64,000 nt of DNA from Eledone cirrhosa (Eukaryota). A model generated the notes under the pieces. That model saw only the letters and a list, made by a program, of their open reading frames with translations. It did not search any database and was not told the DNA's origin. Both the position numbers and the translations under genes were made by a program. Location of the stretch: assembly GCA_964016885.1 (NCBI GenBank), contig OZ024752.1, forward strand, positions 8,432,001 to 8,496,000. Direction: 5' to 3'. This document shows, piece by piece, positions 7,201-42,055 of this stretch; positions within the stretch are counted from its first letter, which is position 1, and each line of letters begins with the position of its first letter.

Positions 7201-7538
7201 CACATCGTCGTCGGAGGTTTATATTTTAGACAGACGACACCACATGGAAACCTGCACCTGGTCATTCAACCTGCTAGAAATAGCAGCCAAATATCTATTG
7301 GGTGTTATAAAAGGAAAAAAACATCGGGAAGTATATATATATATATATAGGAAAAGGTATGACACCGACGGCAGAGCTCAAGCCGTTTCGACGGCTATTT
7401 CTGGACCAGAAATAACCGTCGAAACGGCTTGAGCTCTGCCGTCGGGCTCATACCTTTTCCTATTATCCACTCTACTACCCTAAGTATTGAGTACTCTGGT
7501 GCGTTATGGTCCATCTGGTTCCTTACCACAATTCCTTC

Positions 7539-7572
<34 letters not shown>

Positions 7573-10500: not shown

Positions 10501-10874
10501 ACTCTTTGCAGGTATTTATGAGTTATGTATATTCATTCTATTACACAAGTGACCTCCACAGGACTGGAACAGTTTCATTCGTAAGAAATCATTAGGGTGA
10601 TTTCTTACAAATGAAACAGCTCGTCATGTTGAGGTCACTTGTATAATAGAATGAATATATATATATAGATATATATATAGAAGTGGTTACACAACAGTAT
10701 ATATTTCAGGCTTAACTGGCCTTCGTCAGGACGGTCCCTCCCACCACTTGCGGGACCGTCCTGACGAAGGCCAGTTAAGCCTGAGATGCATACTGTTGTG
10801 TAACCACTTCTACCTAACTCGTCCCATGGACTGAGTGCTCTACCACTACGGATATTACCTTCCAGTGTTCTACC

Positions 10875-10945
<71 letters not shown>

Positions 10946-13900: not shown

Positions 13901-16900
13901 CTTCTATTTATAATTTCAAACTCGCTTGCTATTTCAAAAACAATCTTACTTGTCACACACTCACACACACATATATACATATAGGAAAATGTTCAAGACC
14001 CCGACGGCAGAGCTCATGCCGTTTCTGGACAGAAATAGCCGTCGAAACGTCTTGAGCTCTGCCGTCGGGGTCTTGAACATTTTCCTATTACCCACTCTAC
14101 TACCCAAAGTATTGAGTACTCTGGTGCGTTATGGTCCACCTAGTTCCTTACCACACTTCCTTCATTATATATATATGTGTGTGTGTGTGTGTAAGTATGC
14201 ATATGTACACACGCACACACACACATATATACACATACATATGTACGTATGGGTTATATCAAACATTAATAATAATGTTCGATTCGTTTGTAAACGGCCC
14301 GATTAAAGCTATGCCGTGCCGATGACCGATCGTCACCTGTTTGTTCAACACTGGCTTCGAGGAACAATCAACATGTTTCTGAGTCATTACCCTTTAGCAG
14401 GACTGTATACTGCCAATGGAAGTTAAAGGCCAAAACACTTGCATATATATATAATAGAAGCTGCTACATACAATATATATGCATATATATAAGCGAAACC
14501 TACAGTCAGTAGGCACCTCTTAACCAAATATACACCCCATCCCACTACCCCTACCCTATCCTCACACTCCCACCAAAACCACCCTCTCTCTGTAAAGTTG
14601 GTACCACAACATCCAGTCCAGATAAATGAGATAATGAGATCGAGAACGAGATCGTGTAGGTGTCACGAGAAAAAACACACAGTCCACGCTGTAATGTGGC
14701 CGTGTAGGTAACACGGTAAAAAGTTCCCAGTTCCACACTGTAAATGTGGTTGGTGTTAGGAAGGGCATCCAGCCATAGAAAACCTGCCAGATAGTCCTAT
14801 ATAAGCAAGACACGGTCACCCGACCAAGCTTGCCTCAAATTGGGACAACTCCCGTCTAACCCATGCTAGCGTGGATGATGATGATGATGATGATGATAAA
14901 CGATGATGATGATGATGATGATGATATACAGTGTACCTCCAGCATTCACGGAATTTTCCTGAGACCCTAACTAATAATTGTTCGTGGAAACCCCCTCATA
15001 TTTGCGGAATCGTAAATATCTTCCACGAGTTTTGGAAGGTTTTTTCGAGGTGATATATATTTTTTTAACACTAAATTATCAATAACACTCTACCGTATCT
15101 GCCGGCCTATTAGACGCCCCTTCGCATAAGACTCTCCCTCTTTTTTTTATTTTATTATATTTTACGTTATATTTTGACGTTTATAGGCATTTTTATGGAC
15201 CACGCCCAATATTCGTGGTTTTTCACTCTTTGTGGGAGCTCTAGGAGTGTAAACCCCGTGAATACCTGGGACAACTATATATATATAATTTAAGCTGCTA
15301 CACACACTATATATATATAATTTAAGCTGCTACACACACTATATATATATAATTTAAGCTGCTACACACACTATATATATATAATTTAAGCTGCTACACA
15401 CACTATATATATATAATTTAAGCTGCTACACACACTATATATATATAATTTAAGCTGCTACACACACTATATATATATAATTTAAGCTGCTACACACACT
15501 ATATATATATAATTTAAGCTGCTACACACACTATATATATATAATTTAAGCTGCTACACACACTATATATATATAATTTAAGCTGCTACACACACTATAT
15601 ATATATAATTTAAGCTGCTACACACACTATATATATATAATTTAAGCTGCTACACACTCTATATATATATAATTTAAGCTGCTACACACACTATATATAT
15701 ATAATTTAAGCTGCTACACACTCTATATATATATAATTTAAGCTGCTACACACACTATATATATATAATTTAAGCTGCTACACACACTATATATATATAA
15801 TTTAAGCTGCTACACACACTATATATATATAATTTAAGCTGCTACACACACTATATATATATAATTTAAGCTGCTACACACACTATATATATATAATTTA
15901 AGCTGCTACACACACTATATATATATAATTTAAGCTGCTACACACACTATATATATATAATTTAAGCTGCTACACACACTATATATATATAATTTAAGCT
16001 GCTACACACACTATATATATATAATTTAAGCTGCTACACACACTATATATATATAATCTAACCTGCTACACTATATATATATATATCATCATCATCATCG
16101 TTTTACGTCCGTTCTTCCACGCTAGCATGGGTTAGATGGGTTCTCCTGTTGTGGGCAGTGTCCGGTCGGCTGACCATGCCTTGCTCATACGATATATATA
16201 CAATATATGTTTGTTTGAATGTATGTATATAGGGAGTAAAAGACCCCTAGCCTTTGTCAGGGCATTCTTCTAGAAGGCAACTCAGGAAACTGGGATAACT
16301 CCGACACAAAACCTGCAGCTCAGTAGTTACCGATGATGTTGATCTTTTTCTTCTTTTCGGGTTATAGCTACTGTCGCTCAGAGAGTGGGATTGGCTCAGT
16401 GCACAGTCTTTCCTCACTTTAAAAAAAATCTTCACGCACAGGCATTACATGATAGAATAAATTAATAATTATTAATAATGTTATATCGTGCAATGGCCCA
16501 TAGGAGGGGGCAGCCATCATGTATAAATTATATATATAATTTAATCTGTTACTTACTCAATTCCAAGATCAATTTCTGGAATACCAGACAGCATCTGGTT
16601 TGACAACATGTCCTCACTTTTCTTTGTAGAAGATTCAACTTTTAGATTTTCAGGAAGTTGGTAGAGTGCATCCTCTGCATGAGCTTGTCTGTTGAAAAAT
16701 AAAACAAGTAGAAATTATTTTGTTTGATATTAAATGACATTAAATAGAAAATGTTGTGGTGGCTGGTGTCATGATAAAATGTACCTTGTCCACTCTGTAA
16801 TGTGGTGGTGCTGGTGTTACAATAAAATACACCTTGTCCACTCTGTAATGTGGTGGTGCTGGTATTACAATAAAATACACCTTGTCCACTCTGTAATGTG

Positions 16901-28555: not shown

Positions 28556-30033
28556 TTCTTTTCTACTTACTAGGACCTTAGTCTTTGTCAGGTTGACTTG
28601 AAGACTCCTTGTTTCTAGGCCCTGCTTCCATGTTTGGAATTTCTCTAGTTCCACCATAGATTCCGCTATTAGTGTAAGATCATCTGCATATAGGATTTCC
28701 CATGGGCAGCCGGTCTTAAATTCTTTTATTATCGTACTGCAGACTATAATAAACAGGAGAGGGCTAAGAATAGAGCCCTGGTGGAAACCAACCTCCACGC
28801 TAAATTCCTCACTATAGTTGTTAATCCTAACGTTGCTGACTGCCACCCTATACATGGCTTGTACAGCCTTCACAAGCCACTCATCTACTCCTAATTTTCT
28901 AAGAACCCACCGGATTATGGCATGGGGCACTCTGCCAAAAGCTTTCTCCAGATCAACAAAATAGAGCAGTTTACTTTTAGTTAGGTATTTTCCATGTAAC
29001 TGTTTCACTAGGAAGAGAGCGTCTGTGGTGCTTTTGCCTGGCACAAACCAAAACTGCATTTCATCTGAACTATAACTCTTTCTGTTACTTTCATGACCTG
29101 GTCAATTAACTTGATGCCTCTATAGTTTCCTTTATCTAGTGCACTCCTTTACCCTTGTAGCAGTTGACAATGATGCTGCTGCACCAGTCATTTGGTATGG
29201 CACCAGTTAGTATTTTTTGGTTTCCAATACGTGTAGTTATGGTGTGACCTACCGACCCAGATGCTTTCAGCATCTCAGCAACTATTCCCGATGAGCCGGC
29301 TGCTTTCCCGGTCTTTGTATCCATAATTATCTTATGAACTACACTGCTGCTGACTTGTATGGCTGGGACCTCTGTAGGGTCTATTTCCCCCCATGTATTC
29401 TCCTCATTCAGTAATCTGCCATAATGATTCTTCCACGCAGCTTTCTTTTCAGCACCTGTAAGAGCAAATGCACCTTTGTCATCTCGGACACAATTCTCTC
29501 TAAGACACTGCCTCACAATCCTGAACACCTATTTCAGGTCTTCATGCTGCAAAACATGCTTGAATTTTTTATGTCTCTATGTAGTGTACCCTGCTTCCCC
29601 TATTCTTCCATTGTTTCCATGCATCTCTTAGCCTTAATTATCACACCTACCTTATTGTTCTACCACCAAGTCACTCTCCTTCTCTCTGTAGTTTTGCTCC
29701 AACAACAGATTTCGACTGTCACCTTCAGTAGATTATCTTTCAGGAACTCCCAATGCTCTTCTATATTGAATGTTTCTATCTGTTCTTTACTGTCATAGGC
29801 ATGAAGCAAAATATCTCTAAATTTGTTACTGGCTGAGGGATCTTTCAGCTTCCATATCCTTCTCCTCCAAGTTGGCCTCTGTCTCCCTGTTCATCTAGCT
29901 CTAACAGTGAAGTCGCTAACTACTAGGTTATGTTGGGAAGGATTTCATGTTTACTACTGACACTATCTGCTCCTCTGGTAAGGATAAAATCTATCTAGCT
30001 AGCATGTTCACCAGATCTACAGGTGATCAGGTG
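28556..30033 (-). mobile_element. Decayed RTE LINE fragment, same family as above
   Basis: Frameshifted ORFs with FVDLEKAFG, QGSILSP, YADD and NCYKGKG. Confidence 0.92.
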
Positions 30034-30262
30034 AGCATGTAGCTAGAATGTCTCAGGAAAGAATCATTGAATACATTTTACAGGCAAAAACCAACCAGCA
30101 GGAGTCCCAAGGGTAGACTGAGCTGGTTGGATATCATCCATGAGCTTGACTGGCCCCACTGGATCAGTTGGAGATGGTTGCTTCTGACAGGACCCACTGG
30201 AAGGGGTTTTTAAGGCTTCTGCCCCCTAGACCCTCTCAGGAATAAGTGGACGAAGAATAACA
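30033..30262 (+). mobile_element. 3' end of RTE-like family B (opposite orientation)
   Basis: catgtagctagaatgtctcaggaaaga...gaccctctcaggaataagtgg is homologous to the reverse complement of 28305-28555; another tail copy lies at ~28020-28165. Confidence 0.7.
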
Positions 30263-30304
30263 AACAGTACAAAAGCGGTTTAAGGCGTTCATGGAAATGT
30301 GATT

Positions 30305-33300
30305 AGTTACCCAACATACTATTACAGCTATACTATAGTTATCCAACATACAATTACAGCTATACTATAGTTATCCAACATACTATTACAGCTACAGTAG
30401 TTATCTAACATAGTATTACAGCTATACTATAGTTACCCAACATACTATTACATCTATAGTAGTTATCTAACATACTATTACATCTACAGTAGTTATCTAA
30501 CATACTATTACAGCTATACTATAGTTATCCAACATACAATTACAGCTATACTATAGTTATCCAACATACTATTACAGCTACAGTAGTTATCTAACATAGT
30601 ATTACAGCTATACTATAGTTACCCAACATACTATTACATCTATAGTAGTTATCTAACATACTATTACATCTACAGTAGTTATCTAACATACTATTACAGC
30701 TATACTATAGTTATCTGACATACTATTACAGCTACAGTAGTTATCTAACATACTATTACAGCTACAGTAGTTATCTAACATAGTATTACAGCTATACTAT
30801 AGTTATCCAACATACTATTACAGCTACAGTAGTTATCTAACATAGTATTACATCTACAGTAGTTATCTAACATAGTATTACAGCTATACTATAGTTATCC
30901 AACATACTATTACAGCTACAGTAGTTATCTAACATACTATTACAGCTATACTATAGTTATCCAACATACTATTACAGCTACAGTAGTTATCTAACATACT
31001 ATTACATCTACAGTTGTTATCTAACATACTATTACAGCTATACTATAGTTATCTAACATACTATTACAGCTATACTATAGTTATCCAACATACTATTACA
31101 GCTACAGTAGTTATCTAACATACTATTACAGCTATACTATAGTTATCCAACATACTATTACAGCTACAGTAGTTATCTAACATACTATTACAGCTACAGT
31201 AGTTATCCAACATACTATTACAGCTGCAGTAGTTATCTAACATAGTATTACAGCTATACTATAGTTATCCAACATACTATTACATCTACAGTAGTTATCT
31301 AACATAGTATTACAGCTATACTATAGTTATCCAACATACTATTACAGCTACAGTAGTTATCTAACAGAGTATTACAGCTATACTATAGTTATCCAACATA
31401 CTATTACAGCTACAGTAGTTATCTAACATAGTATTACAGCTATACTATAGTTATCTAACATACTATTACAGCTACAGTAGATATCCAGCATACTATTACA
31501 GCTACAGTAGTTATCCAACATACTATTACAGCTGCAGTAGTTATCTAACATACTATTACAGCTACAGTAGTTATCCAACATACTATTACAGCTACAGTAG
31601 TTATCCAACATACTATTACATCTACAGTAGGTATCTAACATACTATTACAGCTATACTATAGTTATCCAACATACTATTACAGCTACAGTAGTTATCTAA
31701 CATAGTATTACAGCTGCAGTAGTTATCTAACATAGTATTACAGCTGCAGTAGTTATCCAACATACTATTACGGCTATACTATAGTTATCTAACATACTAT
31801 TACAGCTGCAGTAGTTATCTAACATACTATTACAGCTAGAGTAGTTATCCAGCATACTATTACAGCTGCAGTAGTTATCCACCATACTATTACAGCTGCA
31901 GTAGTTATCTAACATACTATTACAGCTACAGTAGTTATCCAGCATACTATTACAGCTGCAGTAGTTATCTAACATACTATTACAGCTACAGTAGTTATCC
32001 AACATACTATTACAGCTGCAGTAGTTATCCAACATACTATTACAGCTACAGTAGTTATCCAACATACTATTACAGCTGCAGTAGTTATCCAACATACTAT
32101 TACAGCTGCAGTAGTTATCCAACATAGTATTACAGCTACAGTAGTTATCTAACATAGTATTACAGCTACAGTAGTTATCTAACATAGTATTACAGCTACA
32201 GTAGTTATCTAACATAGTATTACAGCTACAGTAGTTATCTAACATAGTATTACAGCTACAGTAGTTATCTAACATAGTATTACAGCTACAGTAGTTATCC
32301 AACATAGTATTACAGCTACAGTAGTTACCCAACATAGTATTACAGCTACAGTAGTTACCCAACATAGTATTACAGCTACAGTAGTTACCCAACATAGTAT
32401 TACAGCTACAGTAGTTACCCAACATAGTATTACAGCTACAGTAGTTACCCAACATAGTATTACAGCTGCAGTAGTTACCCAACATACTATTACAGCTATA
32501 CTATAGTTATCTAACATAGTATTACAGCTACAGTAGTTATCCAACATAGTATTACAGCTAGAGTAGTTATCCAACATAGTATTACAGCTACAGTAGTTAT
32601 CCAACATAGTATTACAGCTACAGTAGTTATCCAACATAGTATTACAGCTACAGTAGTTAGCCAACATAGTATTACAGCTACAGTAGTTAGCCAACATAGT
32701 ATTACAGCTACAGTAGTTAGCCAACATAGTATTACAGCTACAGTAGTTAGCCAACATACTATTACAGCTATACTATACTTATCCAACATACTATTACAGC
32801 TATACTATACTTATCCAACATACTATTACAGCTATACTATACTTATCCAACATACTATTACAGCTATACTATACTTATCCAACATACTATTACAGCTATA
32901 CTATACTTATCCAACATACTATTACAGCTATACTATACTTATCCAACATACTATTACAGCTATACTATACTTATCCAACATACTATTACAGCTATACTAT
33001 ACTTATCCAACATACTATTACAGCTACACTATACTTATCCAACATACTATTACAGCTACACTATACTTATCCAACATACTATTACAGCTACACTATACTT
33101 ATCCAACATACTATTACAGCTACACTATACTTATCCAACATACTATTACAGCTACACTATACTTATCCAACATACTATTACAGCTACACTATACTTACCC
33201 AACATACTATTACAGCTACACTATACTTACCCAACATACTATTACAGCTACACTATACTTACCCAACATACTATTACAGCTACACTATACTTACCCAACA

Positions 33301-36300
33301 TACTATTACAGCTACACTATACTTACCCAACATACTATTACAGCTACACTATAGTTACCCAACATACTATTACAGCTACACTATAGTTACCCAACAGACT
33401 ATTACAGCTACACTATAGTTACCCAACAGACTATTACAGCTACACTATAGTTACCCAACAGACTATTACAGCTACACTATAGTTACCCAACAGACTATTA
33501 CAGCTACACTATAGTTACCCAACAGACTATTACAGCTACACTATAGTTACCCAACAGACTATTACAGCTACACTATAGTTACCCAACAGACTATTACAGC
33601 TACACTATAGTTACCCAACAGACTATTACAGCTACACTATAGTTACCCAACAGACTATTACAGCTACACTATAGTTACCCAACAGACTATTACAGCTACA
33701 CTATAGTTACCCAACATACTATTACAGCTACACTATAGTTACCCAACATACTATTACAGCTACACTATAGTTACCCAACATACTATTACAGCTACACTAT
33801 AGTTACCCAACATACTATTACAGCTACACTATAGTTACCCAACATACTATTACAGCTACACTATAGTTACCCAACATACTATTACAGCTACACTATAGTT
33901 ACCCAACATACTATTACAGCTACACTATAGTTACCCAACATACTATTACAGCTACACTATAGTTACCCAACATACTATTACAGCTACACTATAGTTACCC
34001 AACATACTATTACAGCTACACTATAGTTACCCAACATACTATTACAGCTACACTATAGTTACCCAACATACTATTACAGCTACACTATAGTTACCCAACA
34101 TACTATTACAGCTACACTATAGTTACCCAACATACTATTACAGCTACACTATAGTTACCCAACATACTATTACAGCTACACTATAGTTACCCAACATACT
34201 ATTACAGCTACACTATAGTTACCCAACATACTATTACAGCTACACTATAGTTACCCAACATACTATTACAGCTACACTATAGTTACCCAACATACTATTA
34301 CAGCTACACTATAGTTACCCAACATACTATTACAGCTACACTATAGTTACCCAACATACTATTACAGCTACACTATAGTTACCCAACATACTATTACAGC
34401 TACACTATAGTTACCCAACATACTATTACAGCTACACTATAGTTACCCAACATACTATTACAGCTACACTATAGTTACCCAACATACTATTACAGCTACA
34501 CTATAGTTACCCAACATACTATTACAGCTACACTATAGTTACCCAACATACTATTACAGCTACACTATAGTTACCCAACATACTATTACAGCTACACTAT
34601 AGTTACCCAACATACTATTACAGCTACACTATAGTTACCCAACATACTATTACAGCTACACTATAGTTACCCAACATACTATTACAGCTACACTATAGTT
34701 ACCCAACATACTATTACAGCTACACTATAGTTACCCAACATACTATTACAGCTACACTATAGTTACCCAACATACTATTACAGCTACACTATAGTTACCC
34801 AACATACTATTACAGCTCCACTATAGTTACCCAACATACTATTACAGCTACACTATAGTTACCCAACATACTATTACAGCTACACTATAGTTACCCAACA
34901 TACTATTACAGCTACACTATAGTTACCCAACATACTATTACAGCTACACTATAGTTACCCAACATACTATTACAGCTACACTATAGTTACCCAACATACT
35001 ATTACAGCTACACTATAGTTACCCAACATACTATTACAGCTACACTATAGTTACCCAACATACTATTACAGCTACACTATAGTTACCCAACATACTATTA
35101 CAGCTACACTATAGTTACCCAACATACTATTACAGCTACACTATAGTTACCCAACATACTATTACAGCTACACTATAGTTATCCAACATACTATTACAGC
35201 TACACTATAGTTATCCAACATACTATTACAGCTACACTATAGTTATCCAACATACTATTACAGCTACACTATAGTTATCCAACATACTATTACAGCTACA
35301 CTATAGTTATCCAACATACTATTACAGCTACACTATAGTTATCCAACATACTATTACAGCTACACTATAGTTATCCAACATACTATTACAGCTACACTAT
35401 AGTTATCCAACATACTATTACAGCTACACTATAGTTATCCAACATACTATTACAGCTACACTATAGTTATCCAACATACTATTACAGCTACACTATAGTT
35501 ATCCAACATACTATTACAGCTACACTATAGTTATCCAACATACTATTACAGCTACACTATAGTTATCCAACATACTATTACAGCTACACTATAGTTATCC
35601 AACATACTATTACAGCTACACTATAGTTATCCAACATACTATTACAGCTACACTATAGTTATCCAACATACTATTACAGCTACACTATAGTTATCCAACA
35701 TACTATTACAGCTACACTATAGTTATCCAACATACTATTACAGCTACACTATAGTTATCCAACATACTATTACAGCTACACTATAGTTATCCAACATACT
35801 ATTACAGCTACACTATAGTTATCTAACATACTATTACAGCTACACTATAGTTATCTAACATACTATTACAGCTACACTATAGTTATCTAACATACTATTA
35901 CAGCTATACTATAGTTATCTAACATACTATTACAGTTATACTATAGTTATCCAACATACTATTACAGCTACAGTAGTTATCTAACATAGTATTACAGCTA
36001 TACTATAGTTATCTAACATACTATTACAGCTGCAGTAGTTATCTAACATACTATTACAGCTACAGTAGTTATCCAGCATACTATTACAGCTGCAGTAGTT
36101 ATCTAACATACTATTGCAGTAGTTATCTAACATACTTTTACAGCTGCAGTAGTTATCTAACATAGTATTACAGCTATACTATAGTTATCCAACATACTAT
36201 TACAGCTACAGTAGTTATCAAACATACTATTACAGCTACAGTAGTTATCAAACATACTATTACAGCTACAGTAGTCATCTAACATACTATTACGCTACAG

Positions 36301-39300
36301 TAGTTATCCAACATACTATTACAGCTACAGTAGTTATCTAACATAGTATTACAGCTATACTATAGTTATCCAACATACTATTACAGCTACAGTAGTTATC
36401 TAACATACTATTACAGCTGCAGTAGTTATCTAACATACTATTACAGCTGCAGTAGTTATCTAACATACTATTACAGCTACAGTAGTTATCCAACATACTA
36501 TTACAGCTACAGTAGTTATCCAACATACTATTACAGCTACAGTAGTTATCCAACATACTATTACAGCTACAGTAGTTATCTAACATACTATTACAGCTAT
36601 ACTATAGTTATCCAACATACTATTACAGCTATACTACAGTTATCCAACATACTATTACAGCTATACTATAGTTATCCAACATACTATTACAGCTACAGTA
36701 GTTATCTAACATAGTATTACAGCTATACTATACTTATCCAACATACTATTACAGCTACACTATACTTATCCAACATACTATTACAGCTACACTATACTTA
36801 TCCAACATACTATTACAGCTACACTATACTTATCCAACATACTATTACAGCTACACTATACTTATCCAACATACTATTACAGCTACACTATACTTATCCA
36901 ACATACTATTACAGCTACACTATACTTATCCAACATACTATTACAGCTACACTATACTTATCCAACATACTATTACAGCTACACTATACTTACCCAACAT
37001 ACTATTACAGCTACACTATAGTTACCCAACAGACTATTACAGCTACACTATAGTTACCCAACAGACTATTACAGCTACACTATAGTTACCCAACAGACTA
37101 TTACAGCTACACTATAGTTACCCAACAGACTATTACAGCTACACTATAGTTACCCAACAGACTATTACAGCTACACTATAGTTACCCAACAGACTATTAC
37201 AGCTACACTATAGTTACCCAACAGACTATTACAGCTACACTATAGTTACCCAACAGACTATTACAGCTACACTATAGTTACCCAACAGACTATTACAGCT
37301 ACACTATAGTTACCCAACAGACTATTACAGCTACACTATAGTTACCCAACAGACTATTACAGCTACACTATAGTTACCCAACAGACTATTACAGCTACAC
37401 TATAGTTACCCAACAGACTATTACAGCTACACTATAGTTACCCAACAGACTATTACAGCTACACTATAGTTACCCAACAGACTATTACAGCTACACTATA
37501 GTTACCCAACAGTCTATTACAGCTACACTATAGTTACCCAACAGACTATTACAGCTACACTATAGTTACCCAACATACTATTACAGCTACACTATAGTTA
37601 CCCAACATACTATTACAGCTACACTATAGTTACCCAACATACTATTACAGCTACACTATAGTTACCCAACATACTATTACAGCTACACTATAGTTACCCA
37701 ACATACTATTACAGCTACACTATAGTTACCCAACATACTATTACAGCTACACTATAGTTACCCAACATACTATTACAGCTACACTATAGTTACCCAACAT
37801 ACTATTACAGCTACACTATAGTTACCCAACATACTATTACAGCTACACTATAGTTACCCAACATACTATTACAGCTACACTATAGTTACCCAACATACTA
37901 TTACAGCTACACTATAGTTACCCAACATACTATTACAGCTACACTATAGTTACCCAACATACTATTACAGCTACACTATAGTTACCCAACATACTATTAC
38001 AGCTACACTATAGTTACCCAACATACTATTACAGCTACACTATAGTTACCCAACATACTATTACAGCTACACTATAGTTACCCAACATACTATTACAGCT
38101 ACACTATAGTTACCCAACATACTATTACAGCTACACTATAGTTACCCAACATACTATTACAGCTACACTATAGTTACCCAACATACTATTACAGCTACAC
38201 TATAGTTACCCAACATACTATTACAGCTACACTATAGTTACCCAACATACTATTACAGCTACACTATAGTTACCCAACATACTATTACAGCTACACTATA
38301 GTTACCCAACATACTATTACAGCTACACTATAGTTACCCAACATACTATTACAGCTACACTATAGTTACCCAACATACTATTACAGCTACACTATAGTTA
38401 CCCAACATACTATTACAGCTACACTATAGTTACCCAACATACTATTACAGCTACACTATAGTTACCCAACATACTATTACAGCTACACTATAGTTACCCA
38501 ACATACTATTACAGCTACACTATAGTTACCCAACATACTATTACAGCTACACTATAGTTACCCAACATACTATTACAGCTACACTATAGTTACCCAACAT
38601 ACTATTACAGCTACACTATAGTTACCCAACATACTATTACAGCTACACTATAGTTATCCAACATACTATTACAGCTACACTATAGTTATCCAACATACTA
38701 TTACAGCTACACTATAGTTATCCAACATACTATTACAGCTACACTATAGTTATCCAACATACTATTACAGCTACACTATAGTTATCCAACATACTATTAC
38801 AGCTACACTATAGTTATCCAACATACTATTACAGCTACACTATAGTTATCCAACATACTATTACAGCTACACTATAGTTATCCAACATACTATTACAGCT
38901 ACACTATAGTTATCCAACATACTATTACAGCTACACTATAGTTATCCAACATACTATTACAGCTACACTATAGTTATCCAACATACTATTACAGCTACAC
39001 TATAGTTATCCAACATACTATTACAGCTACACTATAGTTATCCAACATACTATTACAGCTACACTATAGTTATCCAACATACTATTACAGCTACACTATA
39101 GTTATCCAACATACTATTACAGCTACACTATAGTTATCTAACATACTATTACAGCTACACTATAGTTATCTAACATACTATTACAGCTACACTATAGTTA
39201 TCTAACATACTATTACAGCTACACTATAGTTATCTAACATACTATTACAGCTATACTATAGTTATCTAACATACTATTACAGTTATACTATAGTTATCCA

Positions 39301-40987
39301 ACATACTATTACAGCTACAGTAGTTATCTAACATAGTATTACAGCTATACTATAGTTATCTAACATACTATTACAGCTGCAGTAGTTATCTAACATACTA
39401 TTACAGCTACAGTAGTTATCCAGCATACTATTACAGCTGCAGTAGTTATCTAACATACTATTGCAGTAGTTATCTAACATACTTTTACAGCTGCAGTAGT
39501 TATCTAACATAGTATTACAGCTATACTATAGTTATCCAACATACTATTACAGCTACAGTAGTTATCAAACATACTATTACAGCTACAGTAGTTATCAAAC
39601 ATACTATTACAGCTACAGTAGTCATCTAACATACTATTACAGCTGCAGTAGTTATCTAACATACTATTACGCTACAGTAGTTATCCAACATACTATTACA
39701 GCTACAGTAGTTATCTAACATAGTATTACAGCTATACTATAGTTATCCAACATACTATTACAGCTACAGTAGTTATCTAACATACTATTACAGCTGCAGT
39801 AGTTATCTAACATACTATTACAGCTGCAGTAGTTATCTAACATACTATTACAGCTACAGTAGTTATCCAACATACTATTACAGCTACAGTAGTTATCTAA
39901 CATACTATTACAGCTATACTATAGTTATCCAACATACTATTACAGCTATACTACAGTTATCCAACATACTATTACAGCTATACTATAGTTATCCAACATA
40001 CTATTACAGCTACAGTAGTTATCTAACATAGTATTACAGCTATACTATAGTTATCCAACATACTATTACAGCTGCAGTAGTTATCTAACATAGTATTACA
40101 GCTATACTATAGTTATCCAACATACTATTACAGCTACAGTAGTTATCTAACATACTATTACAGCTATACTATAGTTATCCAACATACTATTACAGCTACA
40201 GTAGTTATCTAACATACTATTACAGCTACAGTAGTTATCTAACATACTATTACAGCTACAGTAGTTATCTAACATAGTATTACAGCTATACTATAGTTAT
40301 CCAACATACTATTACAGCTACAGTAGTTATCTAACATACTATTACAGCTATACTATAGTTATCCAACATACTATTACAGCTACAGTAGTTATCTAACATA
40401 CTATTACAGCTACAGTAGTTATCTCACATACTATTACAGCTACAGTAGTTATCTCACATACTATTACAGCTACAGTAGTTATCTAACATACTATTACAGC
40501 TGCAGTAGTTATCTAACATACTATTACAGCTGCAGTAGTTATCTAACATACTATTACAGCTGCAGTAGTTATCTAACATACTATTACAGCTGCAGTAGTT
40601 ATCTAACATACTATTACAGCTACAGTAGTTATCCAACATACTATTACAGCTGCTGTAGTTATCTAACATACTATTACAGCTACAGTAGTTATCCAACATA
40701 CTATTACAGCTGCAGTAATTATCCAACATACTATTACATCTACAGTAGTTATCCAACATACTATTACAGCTATACTATAGTTATCCAACATACAATTACA
40801 TCTATAGTAGTTATCCAACATACTATTACAGCTATACTATAGTTATCCAACATACTATTACAGCTATACTATAGTTATCCAACATACTATTCATCTACAG
40901 TAGTTATCCAACATACTATTACAGCTATACTATAGTTATCCAACATACTATTACAGCTACAGTAGTTATCCAACATACTATTACAGA
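30305..40987. repeat. 30/32-bp satellite, ~10.7 kb, intergenic
   Basis: Units agttatccaacatactattacagctacagt (30 bp) and agttacccaacatactattacagctacactat (32 bp). Confidence 0.98.
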
Positions 40988-41692
40988 CATGTAATTTACA
41001 ACTATACTTGAATATAAGCAGAGATCCCTATTTTGTCTGAGAAATGGGCAAAAATCTAAACCCCATTTATAAACCAAGGCAGCTAATCAACATGTCTAGA
41101 TACTTCCCATCCCCTGCCATTTTCCAGAGCTTCTTTTGGTCAGATCTTCATGTGACCTGCATGGATGAGGGAAGAAGTACCAGGAAATGCCAGTAGAAAG
41201 AAGCCGCAGTAGAGGTAGACTGAGAAAGACTTTTCTTGGGACATTCTAACCCATATCAGAGCTGTGATCTCTCAATTCGGAGAAGTAGCAGCTCTACCTG
41301 AAGTGACTCTTTGATCTCTGAGCTACACACTCTATCAAGTAACATTACTCCAAAGACCCTTTGGAGAATATTATTCAGGAAAAAAAAAAAAAAAAAAAAA
41401 AAAGGGGTTTTTTAATTAAATTAATTAAAAATAAAATCAGTCGTTAATTTTGCACTATCCTAATATTTGCTTGATAAAAATTACAAACTAAAGAAAATGG
41501 TCAAATAAAAAGAAACTTGATGGTTTCCAGTCAGTTTTCATGATGAGTATACAGATTAATTGGGCTACCTATCTGTTAAATGTGTACCTGTAACATAATG
41601 TTGATAATTGGGTTACCTGTTAAATGTGTACCTGTAACAATGTTGATAATTGGGTTACCTACCTGTTAAATGTGTACCTGTAACATTATGTC

Positions 41693-42055
41693 ACCTCTCT
41701 CTGTTCAAACCGGCTATAACCAGCTGCTCATACTGATGTTAACCCTTTAGCATTTAAATCAACCATATCCACCTCTTTCTGTTCAAACCAGCCATAACTG
41801 GATATTGATACTGACATTACGGTTTTATTCTCAAAATAAATAATATCAAAATCTTGTAGATTCAATATTATGTGAGGTAAAGTGTTTATCATGAAAATAC
41901 AATAGAATATATAGAGTAATGTAAATGCTAAAGGGTTAAGGTATTGTTCTCAAAATAAATAATATCAAAATCTCATAGAGTTGATATTATGTGAGGTAAA
42001 GCCTTTTCTGTGAAAATACAACAGTATATATAGAGTAATGTAGATGGTAATGGGT
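41693..42055. mobile_element. Nested piggyBac-type MITEs (inner copy 41739-41939)
   Basis: Inner copy flanked by TTAA interrupts the outer copy at its internal gTTAAgg. Confidence 0.85.

What the first reader, a model, noticed from the sequence alone, without database searches (positions are those of the whole stretch)
7346..7542. Fold-back retroelement that turns around at hammerhead-ribozyme stem II
Seen: a ~115-bp near-perfect hairpin plus a unique tail, inside (TA)n. The right arm reads gccgtc-like stem, GAAA, CGGC-ttgagctct-GCCG, TC, which is the 3' half of a type I hammerhead with a canonical GUC site. The 5' half (CTGANGA) is replaced by an inverted copy of the 3' half, pivoting on the stem-II-like hairpin gacggctatttctgg-a-ccagaaataaccgtc. 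Knowledge: Penelope pseudo-LTRs carry hammerheads, and Penelope insertions often have inverted partial pLTRs. Inference: cDNA snaps back on ribozyme stem II to self-prime second-strand synthesis, generating a class of tiny TA-targeted palindromic elements.
Basis: partly seen in the sequence, partly recalled or inferred. Interest (0 to 1): 0.75.

Follow-up and report, generated by a model that had tools for sequence, protein, structure and literature searches.

The report
Penelope hairpins mark capped RNA start
This small DNA hairpin is one of thousands of stubs left by a known kind of jumping gene, and the stubs break off at one spot that likely marks where the gene's RNA begins, in the middle of its predicted self-cutting RNA fold, which gives a testable clue to how these poorly understood elements copy themselves.

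Summary
The hairpin is real: 58-nt arms, a 79-nt tail, inside (TA)n. It is a minimal insertion of a Hydra-type Penelope-like retrotransposon (RT plus GIY-YIG, about 2.8-kb unit) with the published 'inverted pLTR plus tail' layout; at least 4,387 such tight fold-backs exist. Parents carry a complete predicted hammerhead, but with a UUGANAA (U3-A8) core, not CTGANGA. Pivots are far from random: 49 of 64 tail arms that reach the region stop in a 15-nt window within loop II, mode -40. Position -40 has an initiator-like motif with a TATA-like box 31 nt upstream and is followed by an extra cap-like base (34 of 60 versus 27 of 137 elsewhere), so it is likely the capped RNA start. Long ORF-bearing arms never stop there (0 of 20). 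Four template jumps fall at the predicted cleavage site. No RNA data. The scan noted similar RNA-start pile-ups in other genomes.

The parts
7332..7346 (.). (TA)n target, left flank
   Evidence: TA run within about 24 nt of the tail end in 88 of 91 tail-anchored copies
7347..7406 (-). Tailless arm: element positions +20 (outer end) to -39 (GUC cleavage base = 0); inferred cDNA from the +20 start site that ran off the RNA 5' end
   Evidence: outer end at +20 in 51 of 67 inverted arms
7406..7463 (+). Tail-bearing arm, paired part: positions -37 to +20; shares one C (7406) with the left arm
7410..7418 (+). 3' strand of hammerhead helix II (one change from the parent sequence)
   Evidence: parent fold; alignment A1
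7421..7443 (+). GAAA core, helix III (5 bp, 9-nt loop) and GUC triplet; predicted cut after 7443 in a complete parent, not in this half ribozyme
7444..7463 (+). 3' strand of helix I and its extension, ending at the +20 insertion end
7464..7542 (+). 79-nt tail (+21 to +99): start of the parent's 5' UTR; the ORF ATG lies at +191
   Evidence: (outer end +98/+99 in 78 of 90)
7543..7569 (.). (TA)n target, right flank; no target-site duplication can be read inside the repeat
13981..14166 (+). Second copy of the same family in the window (other subfamily, asymmetric pivot, same +20 end and tail)

Best explanation
This is a minimal insertion of a Hydra-type Penelope-like retrotransposon, made of two head-to-head pieces of its terminal repeat with fixed outer ends 79 nt apart, and it likely formed when two reverse transcriptase reactions, primed from the two sides of a cut in (TA)n, both ran off the capped 5' end of the element's RNA and were then joined. 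Shown: parentage, the two fixed outer ends (+20, +99), the pile-up of inner ends at -39..-41, the symmetry between arms, the extra base after -40, the TATA-like/initiator-like spacing, and the absence of stops in long arms. Inferred: (1) the endonuclease cuts both strands and RT starts internally at +20 and +99, as shown in vitro for another PLE; (2) A(-40) is the transcription start, so the capped RNA begins inside hammerhead loop II and carries only half a ribozyme at its 5' end; (3) the two cDNA ends are joined blunt or by 1-2 nt of overlap, giving a dead-end palindrome; (4) long copies come from other RNAs (read-through or ribozyme-cut and possibly circular) that have no end at -40.
For: Parent ORFs with RT and YIG motifs beside the same repeat in L066, L067, L069, L074, L085; 315 homologues at E<=0.001, best 47% identity. 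Outer ends: +20 in 51 of 67, +98/+99 in 78 of 90. Tail-arm inner ends in -42..-37: 32 of 90, 2.3 expected under a constant stop rate; stop rate 0.13/nt against 0.002-0.008/nt outside -60..-33. Antisense arms reaching -34 in loci not selected on -39: 72 of 155 end at -39..-41. Base after an end at -40 is C on the cDNA strand (G on the RNA strand) in 34 of 60 versus 27 of 137 at other ends, p 6e-7; among bases not explained by the partner arm 16 of 25 versus 17 of 78, p 2e-4; an extra G is the cap signature of full-length L1 insertions (PMC11702581, passage). TTAGTC with A at -40 is the only one of 8 initiator-like hexamers in -700..+99 with a TATA-like motif 28-33 nt upstream (31 nt), the spacing given in PMC4581360 Table 1. 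Of 13 direct template-jump junctions among 44 5'UTR-bearing copies, 6 start at -39..-43 and 4 at +1 (read). Arms share the subfamily variant in 47 of 50 typed pairs, 42% expected if drawn at random. Both strands are cut and extended, from two internal start sites that bound the tail, in PAc in vitro (PMC11167929).
Against: No RNA evidence for a start at -40. None of 20 long arms running 500 nt or more into the ORF side stops in -47..-33, against 49 of 64 tail arms (p 3e-10): a simple 'all RNA starts at -40' model predicts some would, so a second template pool has to be assumed. The extra-C excess is weaker in the unselected set alone (12 of 27 at -40; unexplained 6 of 11) than in the set selected for reaching -39 (22 of 33; 10 of 14), and RTs can add C without a cap (recalled). 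Inner ends spread from -34 to about -60, over a weak hairpin. Both promoter motifs carry one mismatch to the published consensus and were defined by me after seeing the peak. Subfamily concordance also fits one arm copied from the other, or subfamilies active at different times. D. virilis Penelope has a TATA-less internal promoter (PMC2377424, passages).
Confidence: 0.7

Rival explanations
1. Same two-primer insertion, but RT stops at -40 because it meets a roadblock (the loop II hairpin held by the element's own protein) in the repeat where the complex was assembled; there is no RNA end there.
For: The inner hairpin spans -58..-37 and the stop rate stays raised to -60. It explains directly why long arms, arriving at a different, unbound repeat, pass (0 of 20). 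PAc hammerhead activity is protein-assisted (PMC11167929).
Against: No stop at the stronger 9-bp helix II met first (0.006/nt in -32..-21). Does not predict the extra base specific to -40 or the 31-nt TATA-like spacing.
Confidence: 0.18
2. One reading: one cDNA snaps back on stem II and primes its own second strand.
For: Pivots are close to helix II. Some junctions recur and look like 4-6 nt micro-hairpins (-40/-34 in 8 of 60). Self-priming was proposed for head-to-head PLE junctions (PMC3846280).
Against: Tailless arm longer in 27 of 60 tight fold-backs; at least 10 nt longer in 25 of 67 by script (16 after I set aside 9 with internal skips or ambiguous junctions by eye); 6 of the 8 -40/-34 junctions have the tailless arm at -40, which cannot template the tail. 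In L069 the tailless arm is full length and the tail arm truncated. Copies without inversion share the stop (7 of 23). A cDNA ending at -39 has not yet copied the 5' strand of helix II, so it cannot form it.
Confidence: 0.05
3. The -40 site is a splice acceptor or branch-point block of a 5' UTR intron.
For: AG at -40/-39 and a donor-like site near -202 are visible in parents; PLEs have 5' introns near the hammerhead (PMC4209133; PMC2377424).
Against: 0 genomic matches to the spliced junction pattern; no common upstream exon in about 90 junctions. PLE copies are known to keep introns, so this blank is weak.
Confidence: 0.04
4. A self-propagating non-autonomous family, or a DNA MITE.
For: High copy number (4,387 exact tight fold-back motifs); palindromic shape.
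Against: Outer ends are not inverted repeats of each other (+20 versus +99); 42 distinct inner junctions in 60 loci; continuous range of arm lengths up to full-length RT-encoding copies; stubs lack the upstream TATA-like box.
Confidence: 0.03

Closest known systems
EN+ PLE insertions with an inverted 5'-truncated copy and one-sided tail (PMC8557442 passages; PMC3846280 passages and Discussion; PMC8969392 passages)
   Same: Head-to-head truncated repeat pieces, tail on one side only, microsatellite target, partial tandems.
   Different: Tail is 79 nt rather than 30-40; most copies are cut down to about 200 nt by one sharp 5' end site; that site and its cap-like base are not described in what I read.
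Hydra clade of C-terminal EN+ PLEs (PMC8557442, section 11 read)
   Same: Unit under 3 kb, RW(R/K) and DKT motifs, CxCx5C linker, CxxC and CxH around the endonuclease E and N, hammerhead, (TA)n target.
   Different: RWR instead of RWK; hammerhead core is the U3-A8 variant rather than canonical; placement not tested by a tree.
Poseidon_Ac (PAc) of Anolis in vitro (PMC11167929, parts 1-2 of 4 read)
   Same: Two internal RT start sites bounding the tail, both target strands extended, AT-rich target.
   Different: Here the starts lie in the 5' UTR (ATG at +191), not in the ORF; PAc RNA-seq showed no reads ending at the hammerhead site, whereas 4 jump junctions here fall on it.
PLE minimal and atypical type I hammerheads, incl. 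the U3-A8 core of Schistosoma Cercyon elements (PMC4209133, parts 1-2 of 4 read)
   Same: U3-A8 core, long helix II, short helix I, palindromic loop III.
   Different: Stable 5-bp helix III and a 33-nt loop II that appears to hold the start site; helix II 5' strand overlaps the TATA-like box.
LINE-1 twin priming and cap-derived extra G (PMC11702581, passages)
   Same: Second RT primed from the other target end gives an inverted piece; extra G at ends that reach the cap.
   Different: In L1 the first priming is at the poly(A) end and the second next to the first cDNA's end; here both start at fixed internal sites and overlap.

Membership tests
EN+ Penelope-like element | Single ORF with RT and C-terminal GIY-YIG endonuclease | tested here: met
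   RDDG and VIY..AYIG motifs in ORF pieces of L066, L067, L069, L074, L085; BLASTP to intact homologue P0001 E 1e-105. Pfam: 0 hits for 5 of 5 own fragments, RVT_1 for 1 of 4 homologues. All copies seen are broken.
EN+ Penelope-like element | pLTR formed by partial tandem; inverted truncated copy; optional tail | tested here: met
   L069 direct repeat 2,834 nt apart, L206 tandem; 67 of 90 with inverted arm
EN+ Penelope-like element | Hammerhead motif in the pLTR | tested here: met
   Unconstrained minimum-energy fold is the three-helix junction for L037, within 0.3 kcal/mol for L041, 3.4 kcal/mol off for L046; core TTGANAA in 62 of 78 distinct upstream contexts with all four bases at N7
EN+ Penelope-like element | RT phylogeny groups with PLEs | not tested
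   No reference PLE set was at hand; no tree built
Hydra clade PLE | RWK and DKT motifs | tested here: met
   RLRWRTFF and SDKTG in L067/L085; RW[KR] in 111 and DK[TS] in 119 of 120 homologues
Hydra clade PLE | CxCx5C linker; CxxC and CxH flanking conserved E and N | tested here: met
   CNCPDRSTC, CNLC..E, CKH in L066/L067; 106, 116 and 109 of 120 homologues
Hydra clade PLE | Unit under 3 kb and insertion into (TA)n | tested here: met
   2.83 kb; 88 of 91
Hydra clade PLE | Absence of the CCHH motif; monophyly with Repbase Hydra families | not tested
   No alignment to Neptune/Poseidon endonucleases and no Repbase sequences
Active type I hammerhead ribozyme | Covariation of helices | tested here: inconclusive
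   95.5% of cells paired but 0 of 26 pairs with two-sided changes in 25 near-identical rows
Active type I hammerhead ribozyme | Self-cleavage after GUC | not testable with these tools
   Indirect only: 4 of 13 jump junctions at +1; no +1 peak among solo tailless arms
MITE (non-autonomous DNA transposon) | Terminal inverted repeats with fixed interior and TSD | tested here: not met
   Outer ends differ (+20, +99), interior varies, parent encodes RT; TSD unreadable in (TA)n
Non-LTR retrozyme | Tandem units each with a complete hammerhead (10.64898/2026.07.22.740005, part 1 of 5 read) | tested here: not met
   The window copy has two half ribozymes in inverted, not tandem, order

The most novel reading that the evidence does not exclude
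The promoter sits inside the ribozyme: the capped mRNA starts in loop II, so its 5' copy is half a hammerhead while its 3' copy is whole and cuts away the downstream RT start sites. The translated mRNA can then yield only tiny dead-end hairpins, and full-length transposition runs through a separate ribozyme-cut, re-ligated circular RNA. The hammerhead would thus sort PLE RNA into a messenger pool and a template pool; L221, with the same +366/+1 junction three times across both arms, would be a fossil of such a circle.
Probability: 0.25. Interest if true: 0.75.

Novelty: new variant of a known kind. Interest (0 to 1): 0.5.

Why it matters
How Penelope-like elements make their inverted-plus-tail insertions, and what their hammerheads do in vivo, are stated as open in the papers read (PMC8557442, PMC11167929, PMC4209133). 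This family gives base-level predictions from thousands of natural events: two RT starts (+20, +99), a capped start at A(-40) inside the ribozyme, a cut at 0/+1 by a U3-A8 core, and two template pools. One CAGE or 5' RACE experiment and one in vitro cleavage assay would test them. The object itself, a truncated PLE stub, is ordinary, and such stubs are easily misfiled as MITEs.

Tried and rejected
DNA search of the own genome with the 80-nt tail: no candidates (the tool skips common words), so patterns were used. CTGANGA within 5-35 nt upstream of the helix II 3' strand: 5 matches, fold-backs or unrelated flanks on reading; the real core lies further upstream and is TTGANAA. Rfam: 0. Pfam on own ORF pieces: 0 of 5; PDB sequences: nothing below E 0.4. 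Sequencing runs: no RNA holder listed; contigs of X1-X3, at most one sample, do not span the hairpin and say nothing on RNA ends. Spliced junction: 0. A +1 peak from hammerhead cleavage among ordinary truncations: the apparent excess at 0..+5 (24 of 52) was rejected because the pattern's gap limit selects internal skips (16 of 60 flagged); solo tailless arms are spread from -9 to +5 with 1 of 13 at +1 in the stored loci and about 3 of 32 distinct loci by eye in the full listing. The -1 peak was an artefact of a reference copy with a change at -2 and vanished. The Fisher tests used a wrong denominator (69); the corrected one is 49 of 64. Ends scored at -47 are partly alignment artefacts of -40/-34 junctions. 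Covariation: none. Second family (L176-L205): ends could not be mapped cleanly with one reference. Assembly artefact: rejected, the arms differ at 3 of 58 positions and thousands of loci have different junctions. Paper searches (listings only, except papers named as read) showed no report of a 5'-end hot spot or cap base in PLE fold-backs; most subscription papers are not searched, and supplements (for example file S2 and fig. S7 of PMC8557442, fig. S2 of PMC11167929) were not opened and may bear on this.

Full report
Observation. The window holds a hairpin with arms 7347-7404 and 7406-7463 (58 nt, 95% complementary), folding far better than shuffles (z -16.4, 0 of 200), followed by a tail to 7542 and set in (TA)n. 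A second copy lies at 13981-14166. Positions below are counted from the last base of the GUC triplet (0 = window 7443). The window copy is a left arm from +20 to -39 and a right arm from -37 to +99 sharing one C.

Family size. In the 3.0-Gb own genome, exact matches number 15,656 for a 27-mer of the arm, 7,829 for a 34-mer of the tail, 4,387 for a tight fold-back centre (palindromic, counted once per strand), 595 for a 28-mer at -75 and 44 for a 23-mer at +128. These are lower bounds. Samples below are the first-listed matches, mostly from contig C1, not random draws; only the 44 were examined in full.

Parent. Copies that extend upstream run into an ORF with RT and GIY-YIG-type motifs; L069 holds repeat-ORF-repeat with a 2,834-nt unit and L206 is a tandem. 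The ATG at +191 matches the commonest start of homologues. RWR, DKT, a CxCx5C linker, CxxC and CxH, a unit under 3 kb and (TA)n targeting (88 of 91) are the features listed for the Hydra clade (PMC8557442 section 11). No tree was built, and Pfam did not recognise the broken pieces. So the stub is a doubly truncated insertion with the published inverted-copy-plus-tail layout (PMC8557442; PMC3846280; PMC8969392).

Ribozyme. The parent has a complete predicted type I hammerhead: helix I (-89..-86 with +1..+4, extended to about +20), core at -85, helix II -75..-67 with -33..-25, GAAA at -22, 5-bp helix III, GUC. It is the unconstrained best fold for 1 of 3 copies tested and within 0.3 and 3.4 kcal/mol for the others. 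The core is TTGANAA in 62 of 78 distinct contexts, with all four bases at the free position 7 and none CTGANGA; this U3-A8 covariant is described for Schistosoma PLEs (PMC4209133). There is no helix covariation in these near-identical copies.

Ends. Outer ends are fixed: +20 in 51 of 67 inverted arms and +98/+99 in 78 of 90 tail arms (89 loci plus the window copy). Inner ends pile up: 32 of 90 tail arms in -42..-37 against 2.3 expected, 0.13 stops per nt against 0.002-0.008 outside -60..-33. Copies with no inverted arm stop there too (7 of 23). In 155 antisense arms reaching -34, ends peak at -39 (29), -40 (27) and -41 (16). The two arms' ends are not correlated (Spearman 0.18, p 0.14). Junctions are mostly blunt or have 1-2 nt of overlap (35 of 60) and are diverse (42 types in 60).

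Snap-back tested. One cDNA folding on itself can only give a second arm that is no longer than the first and has no sequence the first lacks. Among 60 tight fold-backs with one tail, the tailless arm reaches further in 27, equally far in 7 and less far in 26 (8 further loci with two tails or none were set aside). In the wider sample it is at least 10 nt longer in 25 of 67 (16 after setting aside 9 by eye), and in L069 it is full length. Two primings are therefore needed, as shown in vitro for PAc, which cuts and extends both strands from two internal starts that bound the tail (PMC11167929). Arms share subfamily letters in 47 of 50 typed pairs (31 of 81 pairs could not be typed), which fits one RNA or one source locus but does not prove it. 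Recurrent micro-hairpin junctions may reflect one cDNA end priming on its sister.

Why -40. Four lines point to a capped RNA 5' end. (a) A(-40) lies in TTAGTC with TATTTAT 31 nt upstream, the only such pair among 8 initiator-like hexamers in -700..+99; published spacing and consensus are in PMC4581360, and each motif has one mismatch. (b) After an end at exactly -40 the next cDNA base is C in 34 of 60, against 27 of 137 at other ends, and 16 of 25 against 17 of 78 when bases explained by the partner arm are removed; an extra G on the RNA strand is the cap mark in L1 (PMC11702581). The excess is weaker in the unselected subset (12 of 27). (c) Of 13 direct jumps from a repeat position to a downstream 5'UTR/ORF position among the 44 copies, 6 begin at -39..-43 (L220, L228, L229, L231, L245, L246), 4 at +1 (L221, L239, L241, L244) and 3 elsewhere (read); these can also be read as internal deletions, but the breakpoints are the same. 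(d) RT passes the stronger helix II without stopping. The reading that pivots record an RNA start was also noted by this scan for other genomes; the cap base, motif spacing, jumps and long-arm contrast were tested here.

Against a simple version. None of 20 long arms (500 nt or more into the ORF side; two are neighbours in one array) that reach -33 stops in -47..-33, against 49 of 64 tail arms (p 3e-10). Either long copies come from other RNAs, or the stop is a roadblock specific to the repeat on which the complex assembles. The first fits the anatomy: an RNA starting at -40 lacks the core at its 5' end but would contain the whole ribozyme at its 3' end, where a cut at 0 would remove the downstream +20 and +99 starts; long cDNAs would then need read-through or cut-and-ligated RNA, the circular route proposed in PMC4209133. 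L221 repeats one +366/+1 junction three times over both arms. This part is inference: ordinary truncations show no +1 peak, and no RNA run was listed.

Generality. A different TA-inserted family with the same layout and a canonical core (3,059 exact tail matches; related copy at window 10678-10876) has pivots mostly upstream of its core, so turning at stem II is not a rule.

Verdict. The object is a stub of a known kind of element and the inverted layout and a self-priming idea are in print. What I did not find in the papers searched is a start site inside the hammerhead read from insertion ends, with a cap-like base and a split between short and long copies. Novelty: new variant of a known kind; interest 0.5. 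Confidence: PLE stub about 0.95, two primings about 0.85, capped run-off about 0.7. Papers seen: PMC11167929 and PMC4209133 parts 1-2 of 4; PMC8557442 passages and section 11; PMC3846280 passages and Discussion; 10.64898/2026.07.22.740005 part 1 of 5; PMC2377424, PMC11702581, PMC13282606, PMC8969392, PMC4581360 passages; no supplements.

Noticed in passing
window 10678-10876: A fold-back plus tail in (TA)n from another family; both arms keep a canonical CTGACGA core with a short helix II, and the pivot lies upstream of the core. Its tail is shared with a family of at least 3,059 copies whose hammerhead region is different; no stored locus had this window copy's core.
   Followed up: partly
L180, L188-L190, L205 (about -90 to -45 from the family-2 cleavage site): A GCGCATGCGC palindrome and a CTTCCTG motif (NRF1-like and ETS-like, names recalled) lie just upstream of where family-2 arms tend to end, possibly another promoter.
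   Followed up: no
L221 (G000:C2:211682708-211685730): The same junction of +366 to +1 occurs three times, in both arms: possible copy of a small circular RNA whose 5' end is the predicted hammerhead cut.
   Followed up: partly
L214, L220, L241, L246, L247, L248: Arms or jump acceptors ending at about +177 to +185, just before the ATG: possibly a third RT start or an RNA 3' end.
   Followed up: no
L298-L348 (set): Many arms skip helix III and GAAA between short direct repeats, suggesting RT slippage across the hairpin.
   Followed up: partly
parents, about -202: Donor-like site CAG/GCAAGT (GTAAGT in L050) upstream of the ribozyme; no spliced copy found.
   Followed up: partly
L078:927-3206 (-): 760-codon leucine-rich-repeat ORF with a transmembrane-like end, resembling a Toll-like receptor (by eye), in a roughly 28-kb repeated block that also carries a family copy.
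   Followed up: no
L068:4312-5193 (-): A Tc1/mariner-like transposase ORF (by eye) inserted within a long copy of the element.
   Followed up: no
window 30001-42000: Strong sustained negative GC skew (to -0.61), probably a long tandem or simple repeat.
   Followed up: no
window 7248-7303: A second repeated sequence just left of the insertion (raised contig depth).
   Followed up: no
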